From contig CP089279.1 of assembly GCA_023920165.1 (NCBI GenBank), forward strand, positions 558,001 to 622,000: DNA of 64,000 nucleotides. The letters are read 5' to 3'. The notes under the pieces are model-generated. The model worked only from the letters and a program-made list of their open reading frames with translations. It ran no database searches and was not told the origin of the DNA. This DNA is from Curvularia clavata (Eukaryota). Of this stretch, positions 7 to 13,473 are shown piece after piece. The position numbers were made by a program, and so were the translations under genes. Numbering within the stretch: the first letter of the stretch is position 1; each line of letters starts with the position of its first letter.

Positions 7-805
7 ATGGACTACCAAGCACCTGCTCCCGCTGCCGGCGCCGGTGGTCGTGGCTGCTACAACTGTAAGTTGGACAGCACACCCCCCCAGCACCGCACAA
101 CACATGTCGCCACCATAACCCCGCAATCTACAGGCTACCCAGTCGACAATGATTTTTTCCAAGAATTGAACCTCTCGCCTCAGCCGCATTGCCAACCTCG
201 GAGCCGTTTTTGTTTGCTAACTTGTAATGTCTAGGCGGCGATGCCTCCCACCGTGCGGCCGATTGTCCCACCAAGGGCACCCCAACCTGCTACAACTGTG
301 GCGAGAAGGGTCACGTTAGCCGCGAGTGCACCTCTCCCCAGGCTGAGAAGACTTGCTACCGCTGCGGCGGCACTGGCCACATCTCCCGCGAGTGCACCAA
401 GGACGGCGGTGCTGCCATGGGTGGCCGTGGTGCTGGCAACCAGGAGTGCTACAAGTGCGGCCAGGTTGGTCACATCGCCCGCAACTGCTCTCAGGGAGGC
501 GGCTACGGCAACGGCGGCTTCGGCGGTCGTGGTGGCTATGGCGGCGGTGCCGGCTACGGTGGTGCTCGCCAGACCACCTGCTACTCCTGCGGCGGCTTTG
601 GCCACATGAGCCGTGACTGCACCCAGGGCCAGAAGTGCTACAACTGTAAGCCGACATGACATCAAGCGAATGCGACCATCACTGACTTTTTCTAGGCGGC
701 GAGGTTGGCCATCTCTCCCGCGACTGCCCTCAAGAGACTTCTTCGGAGCGCGTCTGCTACCGCTGCAAGCAGCCTGGCCACGTCCAGAGCGCCTGCCCCA
801 ACTAG
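7..805 (+). CDS. CNBP/Gis2/Byr3-like CCHC zinc-knuckle nucleic-acid-binding protein; exons 7-64, 235-645, 696-805
   Basis: The spliced product has seven CX2CX4HX4C knuckles ([14 protein letters not shown] ... [14 protein letters not shown]) plus a Gly/RGG-rich linker. Introns 65-234 and 646-695 are GTAAG..CTAAC/CTGAC..TAG. Confidence 0.93.
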
Positions 806-1738: not shown

Positions 1739-4693
1739 ATGGCGCCCCCAAAGAAACGCGAAAATCGCGAAAACAATTATTACAACGTTGGTGTACAGGG
1801 AAGGTATGCATAGACGCTTCGCAACTTTGCGCGCGCATACTTACACTGCGCAGAAAGACAGGTATCACTCTGGCCGACAAAGGCGTTTACGACGAACATG
1901 GCCTCGAACCAATTTCCGGCATCTTCTCGTCACCGGAGAAGTCCCCGCCTAGGCGCACTGGGAACGCGACCGGATCAGAGTCGATGGATATACAGGAAAG
2001 TGCGTTTTTCCCACTGCGCTCACCCGGCGCAATGTTGCGCGCGCAAAAAAGCGCATTCTGACGCCGTAATTAGGTTCCATTCCAGAGTTCACGACGGCAA
2101 GCCAGCTGCGCAACGGTCGACCAAATATCCCTCCCCCTCGAATGTCATCGCCCAAGAAGTTTATGCTAGGTTCTTCGCCGCGACGACAATCCTCCATGGT
2201 GCCCAGGGGAAGCTCGGCCGCCCCTTCGAGTCCCATCCGCGCCTTGTCGCATCCGATAGCGAGAAGGCTCGATTTCGAACAAGACGAGTCCAGCCTGCAG
2301 GAATCACCGGCACTGAGTGGGTCAGGCGCGCGACGCGGAAAGCGTACAAGCGTATATGAAATTCCCGAGGATGGTGAAGAATCCCCGCTGCCAGAGCCAA
2401 GCGCAATGCTAGAAGAGAGTATTGTGCAACAAGAAATTACAGAGAACGAGGATTCTGCAGTTCTCGCAGAGCAGAGTCTTTTTGCGCAGATTGAAGAAGA
2501 ATCAGTGGCGGATGCCGAGGATATCGAGGAAGTGGCTGAGCAAGAAGAGTCGGAAATCACCCCAGAACCTGTAAAACAGCCGGCCAAGAGGGGCAGGAAG
2601 CGGAAGAGCGAAGCTGTAGACACTCCAGAGGGGCAGGAAGCAGTTACAGAAAAACCACGGAAACGTGGACCCGGTGCGCAATCAACAGAGTCACAGAAAG
2701 GCAAAAAGAGTGCGACTGCGTCAACTGCCCCACCACGAAGATCCCAACGTGTTTCTGATGTCAGCGAACTGGAAGCCAATGCCAGCGAAGTACCTGCCGA
2801 TACTACCTTGGATCAACCTGAAGATATACCTGTGGCACCGAAACGTCGAGGACGCCCGCCACGCGCACAGGCTGCCGCAGAGAAGGAGAATACAGGGTCA
2901 ACAAAAACAGCAAAGAATGCAGTTGCGAAAGACAAGGAGGAAGAAGCATTCAAAAAGCCTGCAAAGCCTCCGGGTAGACCCAAAGCCAATCCCGAGGCCA
3001 AAGCCAAGCCAGGACCCAAACCAAAAGAGAGCTCACAAGCGAAATCAAAAGAGAAGACGCCCCTGGATGACGAAGCTGCTGGCAAACTCGTCGATGTCTA
3101 TGGCAACCCACTCAGTAAACATGACATTGACCAGATGTCCACCACATCAGCCGGCTCAAGATTCGGCCGTGGGCGACATTTGTCAGTCTTCCGAGAAATT
3201 GACCCAGAAAACGTTGCCCGTGTTGGACGAACCGGCCGGCATCGTGTTGCACCAATTGATTTCTGGAAGAACGATCACATTTCGTATGACGTTGACGGCA
3301 GCATGACATCGATTGTGAAGAGTGCGGCGGTAGAAGAGACGCGGCGACAAACAAAGAAGTATAACTCCAAGAGCAAGAAGAAGAAACTTGCTGCAGTAGA
3401 AGAGGAAGAGATTGAGCTCGATCCTTGGGAGGAGAACGATGGTAGGCTTGTAGGCAACTACAAAGGCTACGATCCTGTCACTCAGAGCGCGTCAGACGAG
3501 ATTATTGAGGATGGTAAGTCATGTCTTGCACGCATAATGAAGCTCTGGCTAATTTGCAATAGATATTGCATGGGCAGACAAGGGCATTCAACCTCGAGAA
3601 GTCGGCGATGGGGGCTTCAAATTTGCAAAGATTGGATCCAGTGGTTCCTTTTTCAACTGGGGTATCATTGAGCTGGGCCCTGACCAGATGAAGCGAACAA
3701 AGAACTCGCGCTTCATGCACATGGTCTTCCACGTACAGTCTGGCACTGTCGAAGTCCGTGTTCACGAGAACGAGTTTACCATACACAAGCATGGTATCTG
3801 GCAAGTTCCACGAGGTACGTTGACTCTTCCGTTTTCCTTAGCTTCTATCCGTCTTTCTGTCTAGCCCATTCCTTCTTAACCGGTCACTTCGCTTTTCTTT
3901 CTCTCTGTAATTCCTTTTTCCCACCCTTTCCGCGCCTGGCTGTACGACCGCCGTCAATTTACGCTCGAACGCCCAGCCGGCATGTTGCATACAGCCCCAT
4001 GGGCGTTATGCAACGTCACACTGCCTTGGTGCGCCAGGAACACATACACACAACAAAAGCCGCACATCGGCCGGGGCCGAAGATGTGCCAAGCGAGTCAA
4101 ACGGTTGCCAAAATGCCGCCAGTCATGGGTTGCAGAAGGCTACTGCTGTTGCGTGGATACACTGCATGCTGCGTTGCTACTTGCTAGACACCATGCATGT
4201 TGTCCCCGTTTTTTTTTTCAAACTCGCTTGTTGAGGCCAATCTGTCGTTTGGGGCGGCTACCGCGCGCGTGCAGTCGGTTGGCCAACTGCCAATTGCCAA
4301 CGAAGACCTCTCCCCCCAACGAACGCCTTGTACCCTTTTTTTCTTCTTTTGGCAGCCCCGTTTCTTTGCCCTGCTCCTCCCCTCTTTTTATACTTTTCTT
4401 CTTTTCTACGTACCTGTCGCCCTTGGCGCGTTTGCCGTAGCCTTCCCTGCCTCTATCCCCTTTTCTCGTACCACCCTGCATACGCTTTCTGATTGGCTCA
4501 ATCGCCATCTCTAAGTCACATACACATACACATGCAGAAGAACATTCTTTTACTCTTCGTTGAACAAAAGCTAACGCATACGCTTTGTTTCTTTTTCACA
4601 GGAAATACATACAGCATCAGGAATATCGGCAGTACCACGGCGCGAGTCTTTTTCGCGCAGGCAAAGGAGAAGCCCGTCGAGTTGGAGGAGTAG
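1739..4693 (+). CDS. MIF2: Centromere protein CENP-C/Mif2; exons 1739-1803, 1854-1999, 2074-3513, 3563-3814, 4602-4693
   Basis: N-terminal Mif2_N-like RKTGITL..DEHGLEPISGIFSSP, AT-hook KRRGRPPR, CENP-C motif RTGRHRVAPIDFWKND, and a C-terminal cupin (KRTKNSRFMHMVFHVQSG...WQVPRG|NTYSIRN...ARVFFAQ). All introns are GT-AG and in frame. The last intron is 787 nt. Confidence 0.92.
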
Positions 4694-7600
4694 TTTGTTG
4701 TTAGTTGTTGATCAACGGAACCAAAGGGGTTTTTTGTGGGGAGAGATATGCAGCGTTCGGCTTTTTATAGGGAAACCGGGTCCTTACAACTATGTGTATA
4801 CGTTACTTGTTTCTTTTTCTCGTATGCTCTACCACGTACGTGTGTATGTGTGTTGGATACATACGTGGACGGGGGGCGACATGGGGACTGTTGATATCCA
4901 ATGCTGTGGGAAATGCAGAGTTCTTCTTCTCCTTCTCCTTCTCCCTCTCCCTTCCCTACCTTTGTCTCTCCTGGGTACTTGCGTGCTTGCTTTTTTCACC
5001 TACGTTCAGACACCTCTAGAAACCAGCGGTGTAATGTACGACTGACTCACTGACTGTATAACGCTCTTTTTTTTTGTATGTGTGTGTGACTCTTCAGGGC
5101 GGTCAAGTCGTGCAGACATGCATACTTTTTTGTTGGCCTTTCCCTTCTATCCGCTTCCTCTTTCTCGCTTTTCGCCTTCCTACCTCTCCTCCCCTCCCCG
5201 CCATTTTCGTCTGCATATTCACTGCCGTCGGCGCTGTTATCAGTACTAGTACTTCCTTTCCTCTTTTGCGGTCGGATTCATCTATCTACGCGCCCAAGTG
5301 GGTCCCTTCTTCTTACTCAGCGAGGAAGGTGTTTATGTAGATTAACCTAGATATGCTAATGTCTCCACAATCCGGGTTCATTTTCTGGATTAAGTATTTT
5401 GGGGGATTGGCGCTTCGAGCGCCTCGTGAGGAATGTGTGGTATAGAGAAGGAGAGGGCAGGAGAGTATTGGAGTAGGTATGGGTTAATATAGGGTGTTAA
5501 TTTGGGGTAAGAATTGGGGTAGGTCAGAATATCCGATACATGTACTCTCTCATCCTCGCCGTCCCTTTGTGTATGTGTATGTGTTGGGCAAAGTGATGAC
5601 ACTTTTCTACAATGTAAAAGAAATTGGGATACATGTTGTGACTTCGTGGACACTTTACCGTCCGAGCTCTCATTCTGAGAAAGCGGGATAAGTAGGTAAG
5701 GTCTTTCGGTGAGTGTGACAAGGGGAGTGAAGTAAAATGTATGAATGCTATATCAACTAAGAGGGGCGGGCGGATGTAAGGTAAGTCCTGGCGTAGAGTA
5801 AGGAAAAATCTAGCATGTACGGGGTGCGGGTTTCTTTTCTCAGAGGGGTGGGAGATCTGAAGGAGTGTTGGTATGCGTGTTTGTACGTTTGATTTCTGAC
5901 ATGTACTACTTTTCCTTCTCTTTCTAAACCAATAATTGCGGTACATATGGGACTTTTAAAGGGAGGGTTTGGGCAATACGCATTACTCCCGTTCTCATTA
6001 CTATACACTCATGAAGTTAGGAAACGGGTGGTATTGCTGATACTCAATGTCCTTGTTGAGTGACAGAGTGGCTACAACGAATCTGCCGAATTATCAAGCA
6101 TATCTATCAATTCATAGATGTGTACCACCGCCTTGTCCTTGTATAAGGCTTAGGAACTCATTCATCACCTCTGCACTGCATCTCCATAGCCAAAGCAGTG
6201 TGAATCGCTCTCCTTATATTCAACCATCTAATCCAAGCCCGAGATGTCCTCAAACTCATCCAAAATCCCATTCCTTGCCCTCAACACCACAACCTCCTCA
6301 TCCCAAATTCAAGTGTCCATCCAGCCACGAATATAAATCTCCACCCAGCCACCTAGCTACGTTCTTGCATTCTACATTCTGCAATGCATCTTTGCACATG
6401 CGCCACAATCTTCCAGAACCCACCATTCCACCAGCTAAAAAACCCAACCATCATGCTGTCAGCAAAGACACGGCTGGTGTCAATCTACACAAGCGGTGAG
6501 CCCATTAGTCCCAGCCCGTCCATCTCGCCTGCTGCGCAAACCACACCGATTCTCTTGTCAAAAAAAAAAGAAGCCATCACTAACTCATAGATTGGCAACC
6601 ACCAAATGGGGCAGTGATAAACGAACGTCAGAGTAGTGTTTGAGTTCAGCTACAATGGGTAGTCGGGAACACGGGATGGTGTACTCTGTAGTTTAGGCGG
6701 TGAGAAGCGGTGTAGAAGGCGACGGACGGGCCCTGCATCATCAATTGTAATCGACTAGCAAGTACCATGATCGTTCCTGACATGGTTTGTCCGGTGAAGA
6801 TGGGGACCCATCGACTACAAACTACGTGATCCTTGTTGTTTGAACTAAAGACGCAATAGAGAGGATGTGTTGTAGAGGGAAAAAATTACAAGCCGCCGGA
6901 CCCGACAGTCGAGGCGGACCTGGACTGGACTTGGTGAAGGTTAGTGCCTGGGGCACGTGTGCATGGTTGTCTCTTGCTTAGTAGTGTTTAGTTCGCGCGT
7001 GGCTTGTTTGTAGTAGTGCACCTTCTGGTGGCGTCTCTAGAGAGAGAGAGCGATGATGAGAGGGGCGTTCTGGTGACACGCGCCATGGTGTGTCTTTAGC
7101 AAGAAGAACTTGACACAATGAAGGGCAACTGTCATTGTTGCAAGACAGCCCTATGGGTGGGTGTTCGAAACGGGTGTAATTTTGATTTCTTCCCTGTCCA
7201 AACCAAACGAAACGAGCCAACGCTCTACGAGGCACTCTTTTTTGAATTTGGCTGCCTCAGTCATCAAAGGTCAAACATACGCAAGTGGATTTGACTCTAG
7301 GTAGTGGTTTCATTCGCGAGGATGACAGCACAGCACACCAAGAGCTGCTTTGGCTGTGGAGTAGGCTGGGTCTGGGAGGTGCGCACAGCGCGAAATAATG
7401 TCCATGCTGCCAGCTCTTCATGTCACGAGGATGACCTCGCATAAGCAGTTGGTCGCCGTCTACTAGTCCGGCGGTTGACGACATTTCTTTTCAGGTAACG
7501 GTAAAGGCCGGCCGTGGTAGAAGGGTACTAGTACTACTAGAGGTGCATGAATCACGGTGAAATTGGGGCGTGGACAGATTCGGCAGCTTAGCGGCGATAT

Positions 7601-9110
7601 TCCTGACTAAGTTCCGATGAACTGGCAGCGAACTACTCGATCGGCGACATCTGGCAAAGCGCTACACTGGTGCTATTGTTAGTCCATGTACAGAAGGGGG
7701 AGAGGGATTTGGCATGTAACGCGGGATTGGTGTTTCATGTGCGACTGCCGGGGCGTATGTAAGAAGTTTTAGTCGGGTGGCCCGTTGCATTGTGCCGAAC
7801 AGCAATGCTTTTAATGCAAGTGGCACGTTGGGGGCCTGAGTAGGAAGGTGTCTACAGCTGGGGTGCCGCGGCTTTTGTTTGGGAAAAGCATGCTCTGCGA
7901 CGCCTCAGGTTGTGTTGTGCGGGCAAGACGAGCAGTGTGGTTGTGCTCAGAACATGGGCATGCAGTACATGGACAAATACAGACGCACGGGTCGGATGCA
8001 TGTAGTCGGGGATAGGGCTGGCGCCAGGCCAAAATTTGCCCGTTACGAGGCCGAAATTGGAACGGACAATGGGTGCATGTTTCCTACGGGCGCTAGGGTA
8101 GGCGCCAAAAAAAAAGGGCTGGCGAGGAGCAGGAGGTTGCAAACGTGTGGGTAGGAACGGCATACCGAGCCATGGTTCATGACTGATGCAGGTTCGTGGG
8201 TGGCCCTAGTTTGCATGGAACGGTTTTCGAATCGCGTGCCCCTTGGTGGGTTCCGGCCGTGAGGCAATGATCATCGATCCCGGGCGATCAGAAATCCCGT
8301 CTTTGGACCTCTGTCGGGGCATGCCTACAGGGAGCGGAGAACGGGAATCATGGCAATGAGGCCACGGGCAACGAAAAGGGGAGGGATGCCGCCCGGAGCG
8401 GTGGGCTAGGGGCGGGCAATGGTCATGTGACGTATGCAAGTGCACAAGGTTCGGTTGGCCAGGACGGGAACGCCCTGGTTAGCGAGCGAGGAAAGCCAGG
8501 CAGAGCCGCTGGCGAACCTGAACATGAGCTGAAGAGGAGTTGTGTGTCGTCATGTGTGTGTGTGGCATGAGTCGCATTTGGCGAACAGGTGGGAGATTCG
8601 ATTTTGGCCGCATTAGGAAGGCTTCTCGAAGCCACGCACGACCAGGGGGCGGCACCGACGCCTGTGCAGTGGTGTGTGGCCTTGGGCACACGCACCAGCG
8701 TCCCGTGCGCGGCTTTTTTCATCTTCTATTTCGCTTATTGTGTACTTTGTGTGGACAGTGCGAGTCGTGCGCACAGAGTCAGATAGCACATGGCCATGCA
8801 CAGGCGGACTGAGCGGTGACGAGTGCTTGGTCATTGGCAGATGGATAGTTGGTGGAATGCGAACCGCAACAGGCGTGTGTGCAGGGCCGATGCCGAAGAG
8901 AGGGCGACCGGGCACCCGAGGCAGAGCATGTCGCAGGTGGGTGGTGTTCGCGTAGTGTTGCACGCATTGATTGCGATGTTCGTGTATGACGAACAAGGCT
9001 GGGCTGGGCGTCGGGGTGGTTGGGTTGGGGAACGGGCGACGGGTATGCCGTGCAAGGGCTACTGTCATGCTAGCGGCCTTCTAGAACAAATGGTCGAAGG
9101 ACCAGGGCTG

Positions 9111-9146
9111 CAAGGCTGGCAAGGCTGGCAAGGCTGGCAAGGCTGG
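9111..9146. repeat. 9-bp tandem repeat (CAAGGCTGG)x4
   Basis: Four perfect units read directly from the sequence. Confidence 0.9.
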
Positions 9147-11803
9147 CCTGACGCCCAGGGCACAAAGCTCGCTCTTGTTGACTAGGCTGTTTCAACCCCG
9201 TTGGCCAGTACGGCGTCGTCGTCGTAGTCGTCGTGGTGGTGGTGCTGTCATGGCCGAACGCGCGCCTGGGGCCGGGGATGCGTGAGCACATGTAAGAAGC
9301 ACCAAAAGAAACGACGCAGCCAGCAAAGTAAAAAAGAAAACGCCAGCGAGACAGTCAGTGGCTGCTGTGGTGGTGGCCAAAAGAAAGACGACGCCACCGG
9401 ACATGGGATGACATGGGATGGCATGGCATAGCATGGGAGGTGTGATATCGATAAGCCCTACACAGGTCAAACACAGGCCAACGCCGGCGGCGCTCCTTTT
9501 CTTTTGCTTTTGCGGGGCCGACGAGCGCCAGAACCATGACACACACATTGCACAAGAATAGCAAAGGACCATGCACACACACTCACACGCACCCATCCAC
9601 GTCATGCAAGGACAGCGAACCGTTCATGCAACCCGCACTTGCTTCCCTTTTCTCTCTCGTCGCCCAATCGCCCGCCCGCCTCGTGCCCTCCCCACCCAAG
9701 TGGACCCAGAAAAAAACGCGCGCGTGGACCCATTGGGCCAACGCACTGCTACACCCTCCCACATGCTCCCAAACAAAAAAATACTCCAAACACACGACCG
9801 ACTTGCTAACTGGCGTCGGAAAATTTTTCATCATCCGTCCTGCTCTGGCGCTGCTTGCTCCCAGTTCTGACTCCACACACCCCTGCCACTTTCTAGCGGT
9901 GACAGCCACCCCTCAGCGTCGGCCACGTAGACAGCTGCTTGACCGCACTTCTCGACTCTGCCACTTTGCCCGCCTTGTTACGTCATCAGCGCCCCAGCTA
10001 AAGGCCCTACCCGGCCAAGTAAACGCCAGTCTGGGGTAGACGAGAACCACCGTACCTTGCTCCATCCATCCATCCAACTTGTCTGTCCATGTGCTGTATG
10101 GGTGTGTGACTATTCTAACAGAGCGGTGGGAGGCTGCTTCTTCACCGCCACATTCTGCTCTCTTCCCCTCCTTTTCTGCAAGGGAAATGCCTGACTACAT
10201 GGCATTTGCTGGGGGGGACGTGTTCACTGTTGGGCTTCTGCGAGGGGGGGAGGGCGAAGCAAAAAGAAGGGCAGAGAAACTGAGACTGCGTCGATTAGAG
10301 AGGAATTGACTCTCCTGACATACGTGTGCACGACGTTGGGCTGGTATGGAATCGTGCATCATGGTCGTCGTGTTGTCCTGCAGAGCAACTACCTCGTTGC
10401 AGCAGAAGAGATTCTAGTACCTTCTGTTTAGATTCCCGAAACAGAGGGAGGGGGCGTTTCCCCCAAAGCAAAGACGTTGCAAACACACACAAGGAAAAGA
10501 AAAACTGTAGTTTGAACACTTGCAAATGAAACATGAACAGCATCATACGAGAGTGGCGAACATGTTCTATGTCAATTAAATCTGTAGACCGTTTAACACA
10601 ACAGCCATGGAACAACCGTCTATCTGAGCAAAGAAAGGAAACTAGACCCCGTCATGGTGGTACCACACAAACTCAAAACGCACAATCATTAATCTAGTCC
10701 AACTACCCACCAGCCAACCATCCATCTTGCCGAGACACACGCTGATGCAGATGATTGGAAAAAAGCACACAAAAGCCAAAATAACAAAATAGGGGGGGTG
10801 TGAGTGAGAGAGGGAACAACAAAAGAACCAGCCAAAAACCAAGCGCTAATGCTGTGTTTTCCCGCAAATGCCCAATAAGAAAAGAGACTAGAGAAAACAA
10901 TGCAAGACTGGAAGAGAAAAGAAAAAGGAACAGGTAGGAAGATGAACCGTAGAAAAGCAAAAAGAAAACAGGATATAGTAGACAAAAAACCGTACACACA
11001 CCACCACCCTACCCACGCTAAATGCCAAAATAAACCATCATAAATCTTTGCATAAACGGGTGGTGAAGGGAAAAAAAGAGGGGGGCGGGAGACAGAAGAG
11101 ACAAAAAAGGGATGGAGAAGAAGACATCCATCCCCTCCGATCCATATTCTGTCCCTCCATCCACAACCCCCCTTGAACCCCACCAATGCCTGAGCTGGTC
11201 TTTCCCTGATCTAAAAAGTTCCTTCTTTCTTTCTTCGTATGTATGTGCCGTCATCCGTATGGGCCAGGCGTGAGACCTCATGTTGTGTGGGTAGTAAGGT
11301 AGGTCCGGCTGTCACCCAACCCCCCCACCCATCCACTCTGCACCACGCGACGCCCTTTAACCCTTTCCCAAGCTCCTTGAAAACAAACGTCTTCTCCTTC
11401 TTCTTGCACCCTCCTCCTTCTCCCAAGTCTTATCTTGCGCCAGTGTAATGAATTCCCAGACTCCTCCTTCCATACCCCCACCCCCCAAACCCTACCCTTC
11501 ATTACGGTGCCTGCCCGAATTTGCTACTTTGGTTCTGCGCGAAGCAGCACCAAAACGCCATGTGTATATGTGAACGTCAAGTACAAAAAACAAAACAAAA
11601 CAATCAATCAAATAAAACAAACAAGTCTATCCCAGGTTTTTTGCCAAAACATCTAATGTAAAAGAAATTCGTCTTTTGCGTTAGAGAAACAAAGCGGATG
11701 ATGCTGCTAATCGATGCTGGTGACGTAGATGGTGCCCACCATCTCATTCACTTCTCTCAACTACTCTTTCGTCGTTGTCCTAGTTCTTTCTTTAACTCTT
11801 GTC

Positions 11804-13473
11804 TCATGGGACCGTCGATGCTGGCCGCTCATAAGGTGTGGATGGCTGGGGTGGGGAAGGCATAGTTGATCTGCGGTCTCCGTCTTCGGGATCGCGTTTC
11901 AGGCTCTTGATGCTACCCGCGGCACTGTGCTGTGACATTCTGTCCGGGCTCCTCATATCGTGACTTCGTAGATCCGATGGGTCGGATCTTGGCGGGCCTG
12001 CTGCAGGTGCTGATGCTGACGACGCAGTCTCGTCGTCTTGCTGCCGCCGCCGTTGGTACAGCTCCATGTAGCTAAGCCCTTCGCCCTCTCTCTTCATCGA
12101 CCCCGCCATGTCGGGCACAGGCGCCGTCCTGGCACCGCTGACTAAGTCTTCTTCAGATCGTAGTTGGATCTGTGGGAGCGGCTGGCCTAGTTGCGGAGGC
12201 ACACTCGATCGGGAACGAGTGTCTGCCCGCCGCCTACTAAAAGAGCTGTTTCGCCTGCGCCCAATGCCACCATTACCGCCACCAGCGCTGGAGCCACTGT
12301 CTGTGCGGTGGTGGTAGCCGTGTATGGGGCCTTGAGGCATAGGCGGAGGAGGTGCCTGGTGAAGCTGAGGGGGCATCGGCGGTGGGTTCGGCATCAGCTG
12401 GGCGGCGTTTGCGGGAGTAAAGCCATGTGGTGCAGACGCAGGTATGACAGGCACTTGAGAAGGCGAGCTCATGCCTGTTCCCGTTGCAGATGGGTGGAGC
12501 TGAAACACTGGCGCGTTGGCGCGCGCGCTCATCTCTTGCTCCCCCAGCTGCCAGTGCATCGACTCGGCAGAACGCCAGGGAATACCCATCTCTGTAGCAA
12601 CCTTCTGCCACATTTGGTCCTTGAATCTATTTGCCAGAAAAAATCGTCAGTATTTGTTTTTGTTGCCCTTGTGCTGTCGCACGTCTGTGTGAGACTGGTC
12701 TCGTGCGGCCAGCCCGAGAGTGAACAAACACCAAAATCAATGATTGCAGTCTCGGGCCGTCCAAAAGAAACTCGTGTCTTTCCGCCTTGTAGTACGTACC
12801 GAGCATAGAGTCGCGCAAGCTTATTCTTCTTTTCTTCGTCCCAGATGGCCCGCTTTTCCAGGTAATTTTGGTATCGCAGCCGGCACGAGATGGAGCTTCG
12901 TCCAGGTAGTCGCTTCGCAATGTCGTCCCACTTCATTCCCTGGCCCCGCAGTTCAATGGTCAGGTTGTCCTCCTCGGGGGTCCATTTCGACTGTTTCTTC
13001 GCTGGGCTCTCGTCGGGGAGTGGGGTTTGGGAAGCCTGGCGCTTCAGTGTTGATGGGGGAGAAACATTAGTGCCGGCTGGGCTGTTGTGGATGGGCGCGG
13101 ATCCATGGGGTCCGGAATAGAGTTGTCGAAACTGTGGAAGTGCTGGATCATTACGTCGGTGTAGCTCTGAGATTGCAGGTAGAACAGGACCTCCAAGCAT
13201 TGGTGCAGATCCCTTGGGAGCCGATGTGGGTGCCTGGGGAGGGTAGGCAGCCATGGGAGCATAGTGTTGAGGTGCTGTTGCGTAACCACCGGGAGATCCA
13301 GTAGCATAGGCGGGGGATGCCCTTTGGGCGGGGGATTGTGTGTACGCTGACGGTGCCGTGGTGTATCCTCGTGTGGCTCCTGTTGAGTGAGATGCGTTGG
13401 ACACTGAGCTCTTCTTGCTAGCCGGTGACTCGGAGCCCCGCGCTCGGGGCTCGAGAAGAAGATTGATATCCAG
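11804..13473 (-). CDS. Myb/SANT-domain transcription factor; exons 13473-12800 and 12626-11804; start proposed at CUG 13473 (first in-frame AUG is 13254)
   Basis: Myb repeat KQSKWTPEEDNLTIELRGQGMKWDDIAKRLPGRSSISCRLRYQNYL is followed across intron 12799-12627 (GTACGT..CTGAC..TAG) by WDEEKKNKLARLYAR|FKDQMWQKVATEMGIPWRSAESMHW. The gene is secure; the start codon is inferred. Confidence 0.88.

What the first reader, a model, noticed from the sequence alone, without database searches (positions are those of the whole stretch)
3815..4601. 787-nt structured intron splits the CENP-C cupin dimerisation domain
Seen: the other CENP-C introns are 49-74 nt. This one has pyrimidine tracts at both ends (about 3820-3930 and 4330-4480) around a core of stems. 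These are GTTGCATA 3984-3991/TATGCAAC 4007-4014 with inner GCCC/GGGC; CCTGGC/GCCAGG enclosing it; GCACATC 4062-4068/GATGTGC 4082-4088; CAAGCGAGT 4089-4097/ACTCGCTTG 4222-4230 stacked on AAACGG/CCGTTT; GCAGT/ACTGC 4271-4290; and TCGTT-GGGG 4245-4254/CCCCAACGA 4314-4322. Retention reads into TAG 3862-3864 and removes the last cupin strands. Established: the CENP-C cupin mediates dimerisation. Inference: a regulated-splicing element or hosted ncRNA that sets CENP-C dose or yields a monomeric isoform. I do not recognise it as a known RNA family.
Basis: partly seen in the sequence, partly recalled or inferred. Interest (0 to 1): 0.72.

Follow-up and report, generated by a model that had tools for sequence, protein, structure and literature searches.

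The report
Conserved RNA element inside CENP-C intron
The unusually long last intron of the centromere gene CENP-C in this mould holds a roughly 300-letter non-coding element that related fungi have kept; it matches no catalogued RNA family, and its base-pairing pattern fits best with an RNA read in the opposite direction to the gene, which has not yet been shown to be made.

Summary
The 787-nt intron is real: it is spliced in 4 of 4 runs and splits the CENP-C cupin. Alone it folds no better than shuffles (z +0.17), and its perfect stems occur at chance numbers. Comparison changes the picture. All 15 complete orthologous introns are 519-739 nt. They share a core of ordered blocks (window about 3929-4270) that scores 38-163 bits leave-one-out, against 5.7 or less for the intron flanks. 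Two 8-bp consensus helices stand out on the minus strand (0-2 of 400 shuffles; plus strand 25-256). A TGGCGC..ATTGG pair lies upstream on that strand in 7 of 10 lineages. There is no Rfam match, and H/ACA, C/D, RNase P and tRNA tests fail. Best reading (0.4): a nested antisense structured RNA. Rivals: a sense-strand element controlling intron retention (0.3) or a DNA regulatory cluster (0.2). Strand, expression and function are not shown. Some lineages have a short intron here.

The parts
1739..4693 (+). CENP-C/Mif2 gene; exons 1739-1803, 1854-1999, 2074-3513, 3563-3814, 4602-4693; 664 aa
   Evidence: joints in 4 runs; translation; Pfam Mif2_N and CENP-C_C; 100% to a 664-aa Curvularia clavata protein over the region searched
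3815..4601 (+). intron 4, 787 nt, phase 1, between cupin profile positions 65 and 67
3862..3864 (+). TAG reached on retention (16-aa tail, 650 aa)
3929..4270 (-). conserved non-coding core; strand inferred from pairing pattern only
   Evidence: held-out profile match 3939-4267, E 2.3e-12; held-out covariance model 3931-4096, 46.6 bits; strand tests
3941..3964 (.). block A, the best-conserved block; 3942-3949 is one arm of helix a; the invariant TGT reads ACA on the minus strand
   Evidence: the only 0-mismatch hit of 22 in the genome
   Evidence: 3 of 5 pairs with a change on both sides
4009..4021 (.). block C; partner of block B (4009-4013) and of block A (4014-4021)
   Evidence: helix a 92.7% of cells paired on the minus strand; the 7-bp version 79.8% on the plus strand
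4033..4038 (.). block D, GCCAGG; complementary to 3935-3940
   Evidence: pairing in orthologues judged by eye only
4039..4087 (.). lineage-specific insertion holding the GCACATC/GATGTGC hairpin
   Evidence: gap in all other rows
4088..4096 (.). block E, invariant AAGCGA; can pair with block F (minus-favoured) or block I (plus-favoured)
4122..4135 (.). block F, degenerate in the window (5 of 8 pairs of helix b)
4164..4177 (.). block H (GCATGCTG)
   Evidence: 84 of 100 cells paired on plus, 76 on minus, anchors hand-chosen
4253..4261 (.). block J (GGCGGCTAC); present in 9 of 10 lineages
4424..4496 (-). TGGCGCG (4424-4430) plus ATTGG (4492-4496; CCAAT on minus): candidate promoter upstream of a minus-strand RNA
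   Evidence: pair found in 7 of 10 lineages, shuffled mean 0.01, maximum 1 in 1000; promoter role is inference, pattern chosen after seeing the alignment

Best explanation
The intron is long because it houses a conserved structured non-coding RNA of about 220-330 nt, most likely read from the minus strand, antisense to CENP-C. Shown: the intron, the conserved core with unconserved flanks, a single copy, and two consensus helices that pair better on the minus strand. Inferred: the CGCG/CCAAT pair at 4424-4496 is its Pol II promoter; the RNA runs from about 4270-4330 to about 3930; it folds into two domains (helix b, then helix a with a stacked 5-bp helix) and needs protein to hold that fold. 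Further inferred, and weaker: its transcription or pairing slows splicing of intron 4, so part of the CENP-C mRNA keeps the intron, meets an early stop and loses the last cupin strands, lowering the dose of dimer-competent CENP-C. It could equally be a passenger RNA with a job elsewhere.
For: Core 38-163 bits leave-one-out against 5.7 or less for both intron flanks in 10 lineages. Blocks keep their order across variable-length spacers. Best 7-8 bp consensus helix against 400 conservation-class column shuffles: minus 0-2 in both domains, with and without the window and with two alignment modes; plus 25-256; the lowest of 10 control strand-alignments is 13. Leave-one-lineage-out picks the same helix 10 of 10 times on minus (held-out 74 of 80 and 70 of 80 paired), against unstable picks on plus (48 and 49 of 80). 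Domain 1 on minus: 86% paired, 5 of 17 pairs changed on both sides, covariation score reached by 0 of 500 shuffles; a 21-pair plus version gives 74.6% and 18 of 500. Changes are of the G-U/A-U/G-C kind on minus. The promoter-like pair lies on the upstream side in 7 of 10 lineages. The genome's own RNase MRP RNA has a folding z of only -0.8, so a flat z does not exclude an RNA.
Against: No stranded expression data. No segment folds better than shuffles (Stouffer |z| at most 2.3 over 14 tests), and alignment folding z is -1.0 and -1.5 on minus. Helix a reaches mean probability above 0.8 in only 2 of 10 lineages on minus and 1 of 10 on plus, and in none when the whole core is folded. Helix b has no two-sided change and is degraded in the window (5 of 8). 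The E/I helix and the small hairpin after block A favour plus (84 against 76 of 100; 15 G-U against 2 A-C). The pair-count tool warns that related sequences beat its shuffles in 5-25% of unstructured alignments, and column shuffles do not model inverted protein-binding sites. One contig spans the intron and both flanking exons evenly, as a retained pre-mRNA would; in another run cover is highest 3' of the core and absent over 3829-4197. The intron is short in some lineages.
Confidence: 0.4

Rival explanations
1. A sense-strand pre-mRNA element: the folded intron binds a regulator, possibly CENP-C itself, and sets how often intron 4 is retained, sending part of the mRNA to decay or to a cupin-truncated protein.
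For: Contigs through intron 4 in 3 of 4 runs (mean depth 6.3 against 76-104, 8.5 against 34, 2.9-11.6 against 16.6), with no unspliced piece listed for introns 1-3 (depth is a poor measure and 5 pieces were not shown). Block A sits 115-163 nt from the 5' splice site in 9 of 9 lineages measured. The E/I helix pairs in 84 of 100 cells on plus. Retention meets a stop inside the intron in 12 of 12 rows. Such autoregulatory intron structures are proposed for other fungal genes (PMC8216456, passages).
Against: Best-helix test not significant on plus. No conserved internal splice site or branch point and no alternative joint in 4 runs. A long last intron is expected to be seen unspliced more often. 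The CGCG/CCAAT pair has no obvious role in splicing. Retained tails are unconserved.
Confidence: 0.3
2. A DNA-level regulatory cluster (intronic enhancer or internal promoter): the blocks are transcription-factor sites, and inverted copies of similar sites mimic helices.
For: No folding signal. Blocks reuse short words such as GTCAC, TGACG, GGCGG and CGCG in both orientations. Further conserved GCGGTG motifs follow the stop codon in 8 of 8 orthologues aligned, and a long ORF-poor stretch follows the gene.
Against: It does not explain the strand bias of mismatches (12 A-C against 2 G-U in helix a), the two-sided changes in the B/C helix or the nested order of complementary blocks. Pattern copies elsewhere in the genome are at control level (22 against 29).
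Confidence: 0.2
3. A very divergent known RNA, chiefly nuclear RNase P RNA (not found elsewhere in this genome) or an orphan H/ACA RNA.
For: The size fits. SRP, MRP and telomerase RNAs are found elsewhere in the genome but RF00009 is not. Intron-embedded RNase P RNA has a precedent in insects (PMC4287351, PMC6797745, search listing). An invariant ACA ends the minus-strand core.
Against: No conserved CR-I or CR-V on either strand (consensus recalled). No RNase P or H/ACA hit at E up to 10, even on 360-370 nt stretches. The H-box-like word fails in 3 of 10 lineages, and no rRNA pocket target is shared by more than 5 of 10. The failed RF00009 search rang nowhere and shows no absence. An essential RNA would have had to move in the short-intron lineages.
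Confidence: 0.07
4. Neutral sequence or a transposon remnant.
For: Folding like shuffles. Strain substitutions are not significantly rarer in the core (5 in 342 against 12 in 445, p 0.32).
Against: Conserved across lineages whose intron flanks no longer align; single copy.
Confidence: 0.03

Closest known systems
ies6 motif of filamentous fungi (Li and Breaker 2017, PMC5640933, section read)
   Same: A conserved fungal RNA motif drawn antisense to a gene involved in chromosome segregation, with strand argued from structure; an antisense transcript was detected there by RT-PCR.
   Different: ies6 is one extended hairpin with a GNRA loop adjacent to its gene. This is a multi-block element of about 300 nt inside a cupin-splitting intron, with no Rfam match.
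Conserved intronic structures of Pezizomycotina: metacaspase 1B intron, lysyl-tRNA synthetase intron, intronic H/ACA snoRNA (Gao, Jones and Rivas 2021, PMC8216456, passages and Table 1)
   Same: Single-copy conserved structure tied to one intron of one gene; cis element or hosted RNA left open.
   Different: Those are 60-177 nt with 4-20 significant covarying pairs. None of the 17 is in a CENP-C gene, and the screen started from five model genomes, none a Dothideomycete. Covariation here is suggestive only.
Box H/ACA RNAs, including orphan ones of about 300 nt in Neurospora (PMC2780460, passages)
   Same: Two-domain layout ending in an invariant ACA on the minus strand; similar length.
   Different: No H box between the two domains, the H-like word is not invariant, no guide target, and the ACA overlaps helix a.
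Intron-embedded RNase P RNA of insects (PMC4287351, PMC6797745; search listing and one passage)
   Same: A structured RNA of about 300 nt that forces a host intron to stay long.
   Different: No CR-I or CR-V motif here.

Membership tests
CENP-C/Mif2 (host gene) | Mif2_N and C-terminal cupin CENP-C_C domains | tested here: met
   PF15624 E 8.6e-8 and PF11699 E 1.5e-19; exon 4 matches the S. pombe Cnp3 cupin 6O2D, E 3.8e-4
Any Rfam 15 family | covariance-model match at or near the gathering score | tested here: not met
   window 3000-5500, nine orthologous loci and two short stretches: no hit inside the core above 11.9 bits
Box H/ACA RNA | ACA three nt from the 3' end, after a hairpin | tested here: inconclusive
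   invariant ACA on minus in 12 of 12 rows, but its A and C are paired in helix a and the 3' end is unknown
Box H/ACA RNA | H box ANANNA in the hinge between two hairpins | tested here: not met
   the ACAGCA-like word fits in 7 of 10 lineages (fails in L008, L011 and the window homologue at 4164-4177) and lies inside domain 2, not in the hinge
Box H/ACA RNA | bipartite guide to an rRNA uridine 14-16 nt before a box | tested here: not met
   best shared target in 4 of 10 lineages (ACA) and 5 of 10 (H), using this genome's rRNA; snRNA targets not tested
Box C/D snoRNA, U3 | conserved RUGAUGA and CUGA boxes; 10-21 nt antisense to rRNA | tested here: not met
   no box C within one mismatch in the window intron; only 9-10 nt matches with G-U at chance level
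Nuclear RNase P RNA | CR-I and CR-V forming helix P4 | tested here: not met
   no conserved match on either strand (consensus recalled)
Nuclear RNase P RNA | no other RNase P RNA gene in the genome | tested here: inconclusive
   RF00009 found nothing; 1 of 24 CR-I pattern hits had a downstream CR-V-like word, not followed up
RNase MRP, SRP, telomerase RNA | the element is the genome's copy | tested here: not met
   each found on another contig (telomerase as a partial match)
tRNA or tmRNA | ARAGORN cloverleaf | tested here: not met
   0 genes in 7 of 7 loci
Sm-class snRNA | Sm site | tested here: not met
   none in 12 of 12 introns on either strand
Poison exon or twin intron | conserved internal splice sites, or joints inside the intron | tested here: not met
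   no conserved internal donor or branch site; only the 787-nt joint in 4 runs (contigs drop rare forms)
Antisense structured RNA (ies6-like kind) | a transcript from the opposite strand | not testable with these tools
   only unstranded contigs were on offer
Conserved structured RNA | significant phylogeny-corrected covariation | tested here: inconclusive
   5 of 17 pairs with two-sided change, 0 of 500 for the score, without tree correction; helix b none; R-scape not available and 10 lineages give little power

The most novel reading that the evidence does not exclude
A new class of structured RNA, kept across Pleosporales and probably wider Dothideomycetes, is transcribed antisense from its own promoter inside the CENP-C cupin intron and acts on CENP-C itself, either by tuning removal of that intron or by binding the protein at centromeres.
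Probability: 0.15. Interest if true: 0.85.

Novelty: new variant of a known kind. Interest (0 to 1): 0.62.

Why it matters
CENP-C is the hub of the inner kinetochore and its cupin dimer is needed for function (bioRxiv 10.1101/2022.08.17.504347, passages). A conserved non-coding element placed between the exons of that domain gives a concrete, deletable handle on whether RNA regulates a fungal kinetochore protein. It also points to structured RNAs missed by screens seeded from Aspergillus, Neurospora and yeasts. Lineages with a short intron at the same position are natural comparisons. If the element proves to be only an enhancer, the interest drops to a conserved intronic regulatory site.

Tried and rejected
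Single-sequence folding as evidence: flat. RNAalifold on the gappy plus-strand alignment predicted 0 pairs. One search used a structure string that was one column off and was replaced. Structural aligners were not installed. RNase P, MRP, SRP, telomerase, H/ACA, C/D, tRNA and Sm-class identities were rejected or unsupported. A likeness of block H to a short word in the genome's MRP RNA was not supported by the profile search (no hit on MRP, SRP or rDNA). No conserved retained peptide and no shared ORF position. Second copies: none in 217 kb of held DNA or in 21 pattern loci; the whole genome could not be searched with the RNA model. One contig ends at 3939, next to the ACA, but this is one run and contigs cannot show ends. 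The sigma-70 promoter scan does not apply to fungi. Synteny of the downstream Myb gene could not be tested. The two Neodothiora isoforms differ at the N-terminus, not at this intron. Six look-ups of earlier findings gave nothing on this element.

Full report
Gene and intron. The window encodes CENP-C in five exons. Contigs of 4 of 4 public runs join across introns of 50, 74, 49 and 787 nt (the runs are RNA by guess, but the joints are spliced). The protein is 664 aa and is 100% identical over the searched region to a 664-aa Curvularia clavata protein. Exon 4 holds cupin profile positions 1-65 and exon 5 positions 67-85; exon 4 matches the solved Cnp3 cupin. Cupin dimerisation is taken from passages of bioRxiv 10.1101/2022.08.17.504347. 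Retention would end at TAG 3862-3864 after 16 foreign residues.

Whole-intron z is +0.17, core z is +0.9, and perfect stems occur at shuffled numbers. Rfam gives nothing in the intron.

Orthologues. A scan with exon 4 gave 17 metagenome loci from 94 candidate stretches. Fifteen hold the whole intron at the same position, 519-739 nt long; L007 is cut short and L018 lacks it. Intron 3 was 49-79 nt in 7 of 8 rows checked. For lineage counts I dropped the near-duplicates L003, L007, L009, L010, L016, L017 and one of L011/L012, leaving 9 lineages plus the window; the 12-row alignments still include L003 and L016. By nearest named protein these are Pyrenophora-, Alternaria-, Plenodomus-, Parastagonospora- and Setomelanomma/Paraphoma-like, plus one distant lineage at about 50% (family and order names are recalled).

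Conservation. Ordered blocks with variable spacers form a core of 221-327 nt from block A to block J. A profile built without the window finds the window core at E 2.3e-12, and each of the other 9 lineages is found when left out. A covariance model built without the window scores it 46.6 bits. The core scores 38-163 bits leave-one-out, the two intron flanks 5.7 or less, and the 320 nt after the stop up to 38. Among conspecific strain differences the core is not significantly spared (5 in 342 against 12 in 445).

Breadth. Gene callers often read through into this intron, which shows it in translation. Of 81 such tails of 45 aa or more, 29 carry a block A signature (shuffled 0.13), 22 a block E signature (3.1) and 17 a block H signature (0.8). 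The patterns were set after I had seen the tails, and the 81 include my own lineages and five members of one cluster, so this shows breadth and is not an independent count. Named carriers include Decorospora, Parastagonospora SN15, Ampelomyces, Periconia and Polyplosphaeria. Unnamed carriers P0221 and P0185 lie nearest to Alyxoria, Lepidopterella and Thelocarpon at about 60%, so the element probably reaches beyond Pleosporales. Against universality: P0118 (nearest Macroventuria and Didymella) reaches exon 5 after about 18 codons, P0202 after about 79 codons without blocks, and four proteins nearest Chlorociboria or Bisporella or unplaced after 15-28 codons.

Structure and strand. On sequence-only alignments the best consensus helices are significant on the minus strand only. 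For 7-8 bp helices, 0-2 of 400 column shuffles reach the observed value in both domains, with and without the window; plus gives 25-256 of 400, and ten control strand-alignments give 13 or more (first seen). Leaving out one lineage at a time picks the same helix every time on minus, with 74 of 80 and 70 of 80 held-out pairs, against 48 and 49 of 80 on plus. Helix a (3942-3949 with 4014-4021) stacks on a 5-bp helix in which 3 of 5 pairs change on both sides; the minus model has 86% of cells paired and a covariation score reached by 0 of 500 shuffles, a 21-pair plus model 74.6% and 18 of 500.

Results against that reading. The tool's shuffles ignore relatedness. Helix b has no two-sided change and pairs 5 of 8 in the window. 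The E/I helix, with hand-chosen anchors, favours plus (84 against 76 of 100), and it is the top partner of block E in 4 of 10 lineages. No segment folds better than shuffles. Helix a is rarely dominant in single-sequence ensembles. Alignment folding z is not significant on either strand. The genome's RNase MRP RNA also has a weak z (-0.8), while its SRP RNA has -3.3. Structure is therefore likely but not proven, and the strand is a lean, not a result.

Promoter-like motifs. TGGCGC followed within 10-70 nt by ATTGG lies in the distal intron in 7 of 10 lineages (shuffled mean 0.01). It would sit about 150-230 nt upstream of a minus-strand RNA in the window. The pattern was chosen after seeing the alignment. 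The labels CCAAT box and MCB-like are recalled.

Expression. Contigs cover intron 4 in 3 of 4 runs: 3786-4629 at depth 6.3 (spliced 76-104), 3939-4629 at 8.5 (34), and 4198-4359 and 4388-4629 at 2.9 and 11.6 (16.6). No unspliced piece is listed for introns 1-3, and no alternative joint (5 pieces not shown). Contigs give neither strand nor ends, so this fits retention, slow splicing or an overlapping antisense RNA.

Identity. There is no Rfam family match. SRP, MRP and telomerase RNAs lie elsewhere. RNase P RNA was not found anywhere, but the core lacks its conserved regions. H/ACA, C/D, Sm and tRNA tests fail. The element appears single-copy.

Literature. Ten searches listed no paper on this intron; subscription journals are mostly outside the library. 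PMC5640933: abstract, outline, term search (no Mif2 or CENP) and sections on ies6, hexA and the atypical snoRNA read. PMC8216456: term search and passages with Table 1 read, supplement unreadable. PMC2780460 and PMC1636426: passages. PMC4287351: listing and one passage. PMC6797745: listing only. That CENP-C binds RNA in other organisms is recalled and untested here.

Verdict. This is a real and apparently undescribed conserved non-coding element that explains the long intron. Most likely it is a nested antisense structured RNA (0.4), otherwise a sense-strand splicing element (0.3), a DNA regulatory cluster (0.2), a divergent known RNA (0.07) or neutral sequence (0.03). Interest 0.62; a new variant of a known kind.

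Noticed in passing
L004, L005, L006, L008, L012, L013, L014, L015, within about 200 nt after the CENP-C stop; window about 5024-5041: A tandem GCGGTG..GCGGT motif follows the stop codon in 8 of 8 orthologues aligned. The window lacks it at that spot but has a similar word about 330 nt after the stop, followed by the same 8-mer that starts block A.
   Followed up: partly
window 4694-11803: About 7 kb without a convincing ORF between the 3' ends of CENP-C (+) and a Myb-domain gene (minus, 11804-13254). No Rfam hit of note, and no contig cover at 4925-5600 in 4 runs. Orthologous loci also lack long ORFs for up to 2.5 kb downstream.
   Followed up: partly
window 8-805 and 835-1180: The upstream neighbour is a CCHC zinc-knuckle gene, syntenic in L002, L010, L012, L013 and L014, with a conserved 3' region.
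   Followed up: partly
window about 1683-1707: Two ACGCGT words just upstream of the CENP-C start, resembling cell-cycle MCB boxes (label recalled).
   Followed up: no
G000 whole genome; L037 (G000:C6:424871): No nuclear RNase P RNA was found with RF00009. One of 24 CR-I-like pattern hits has a CR-V-like word about 500 nt downstream and could be checked.
   Followed up: partly
proteins P0010, P0016, P0023, P0028, P0032, P0047, P0051, P0060, P0067, P0127: Several public CENP-C annotations go wrong at this intron, reading into it or adding false exons and losing the cupin end.
   Followed up: partly
window 4039-4055, 4517-4533 and about 4838-4856: CA-rich microsatellite-like words in the intron are complementary to a GT-rich word in the 3' UTR; the 4527 repeat varies between strains. 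Not seen in orthologues.
   Followed up: no
G000:C8:1306412-1306520: A weak partial 5.8S rRNA-like match away from the rDNA array.
   Followed up: no
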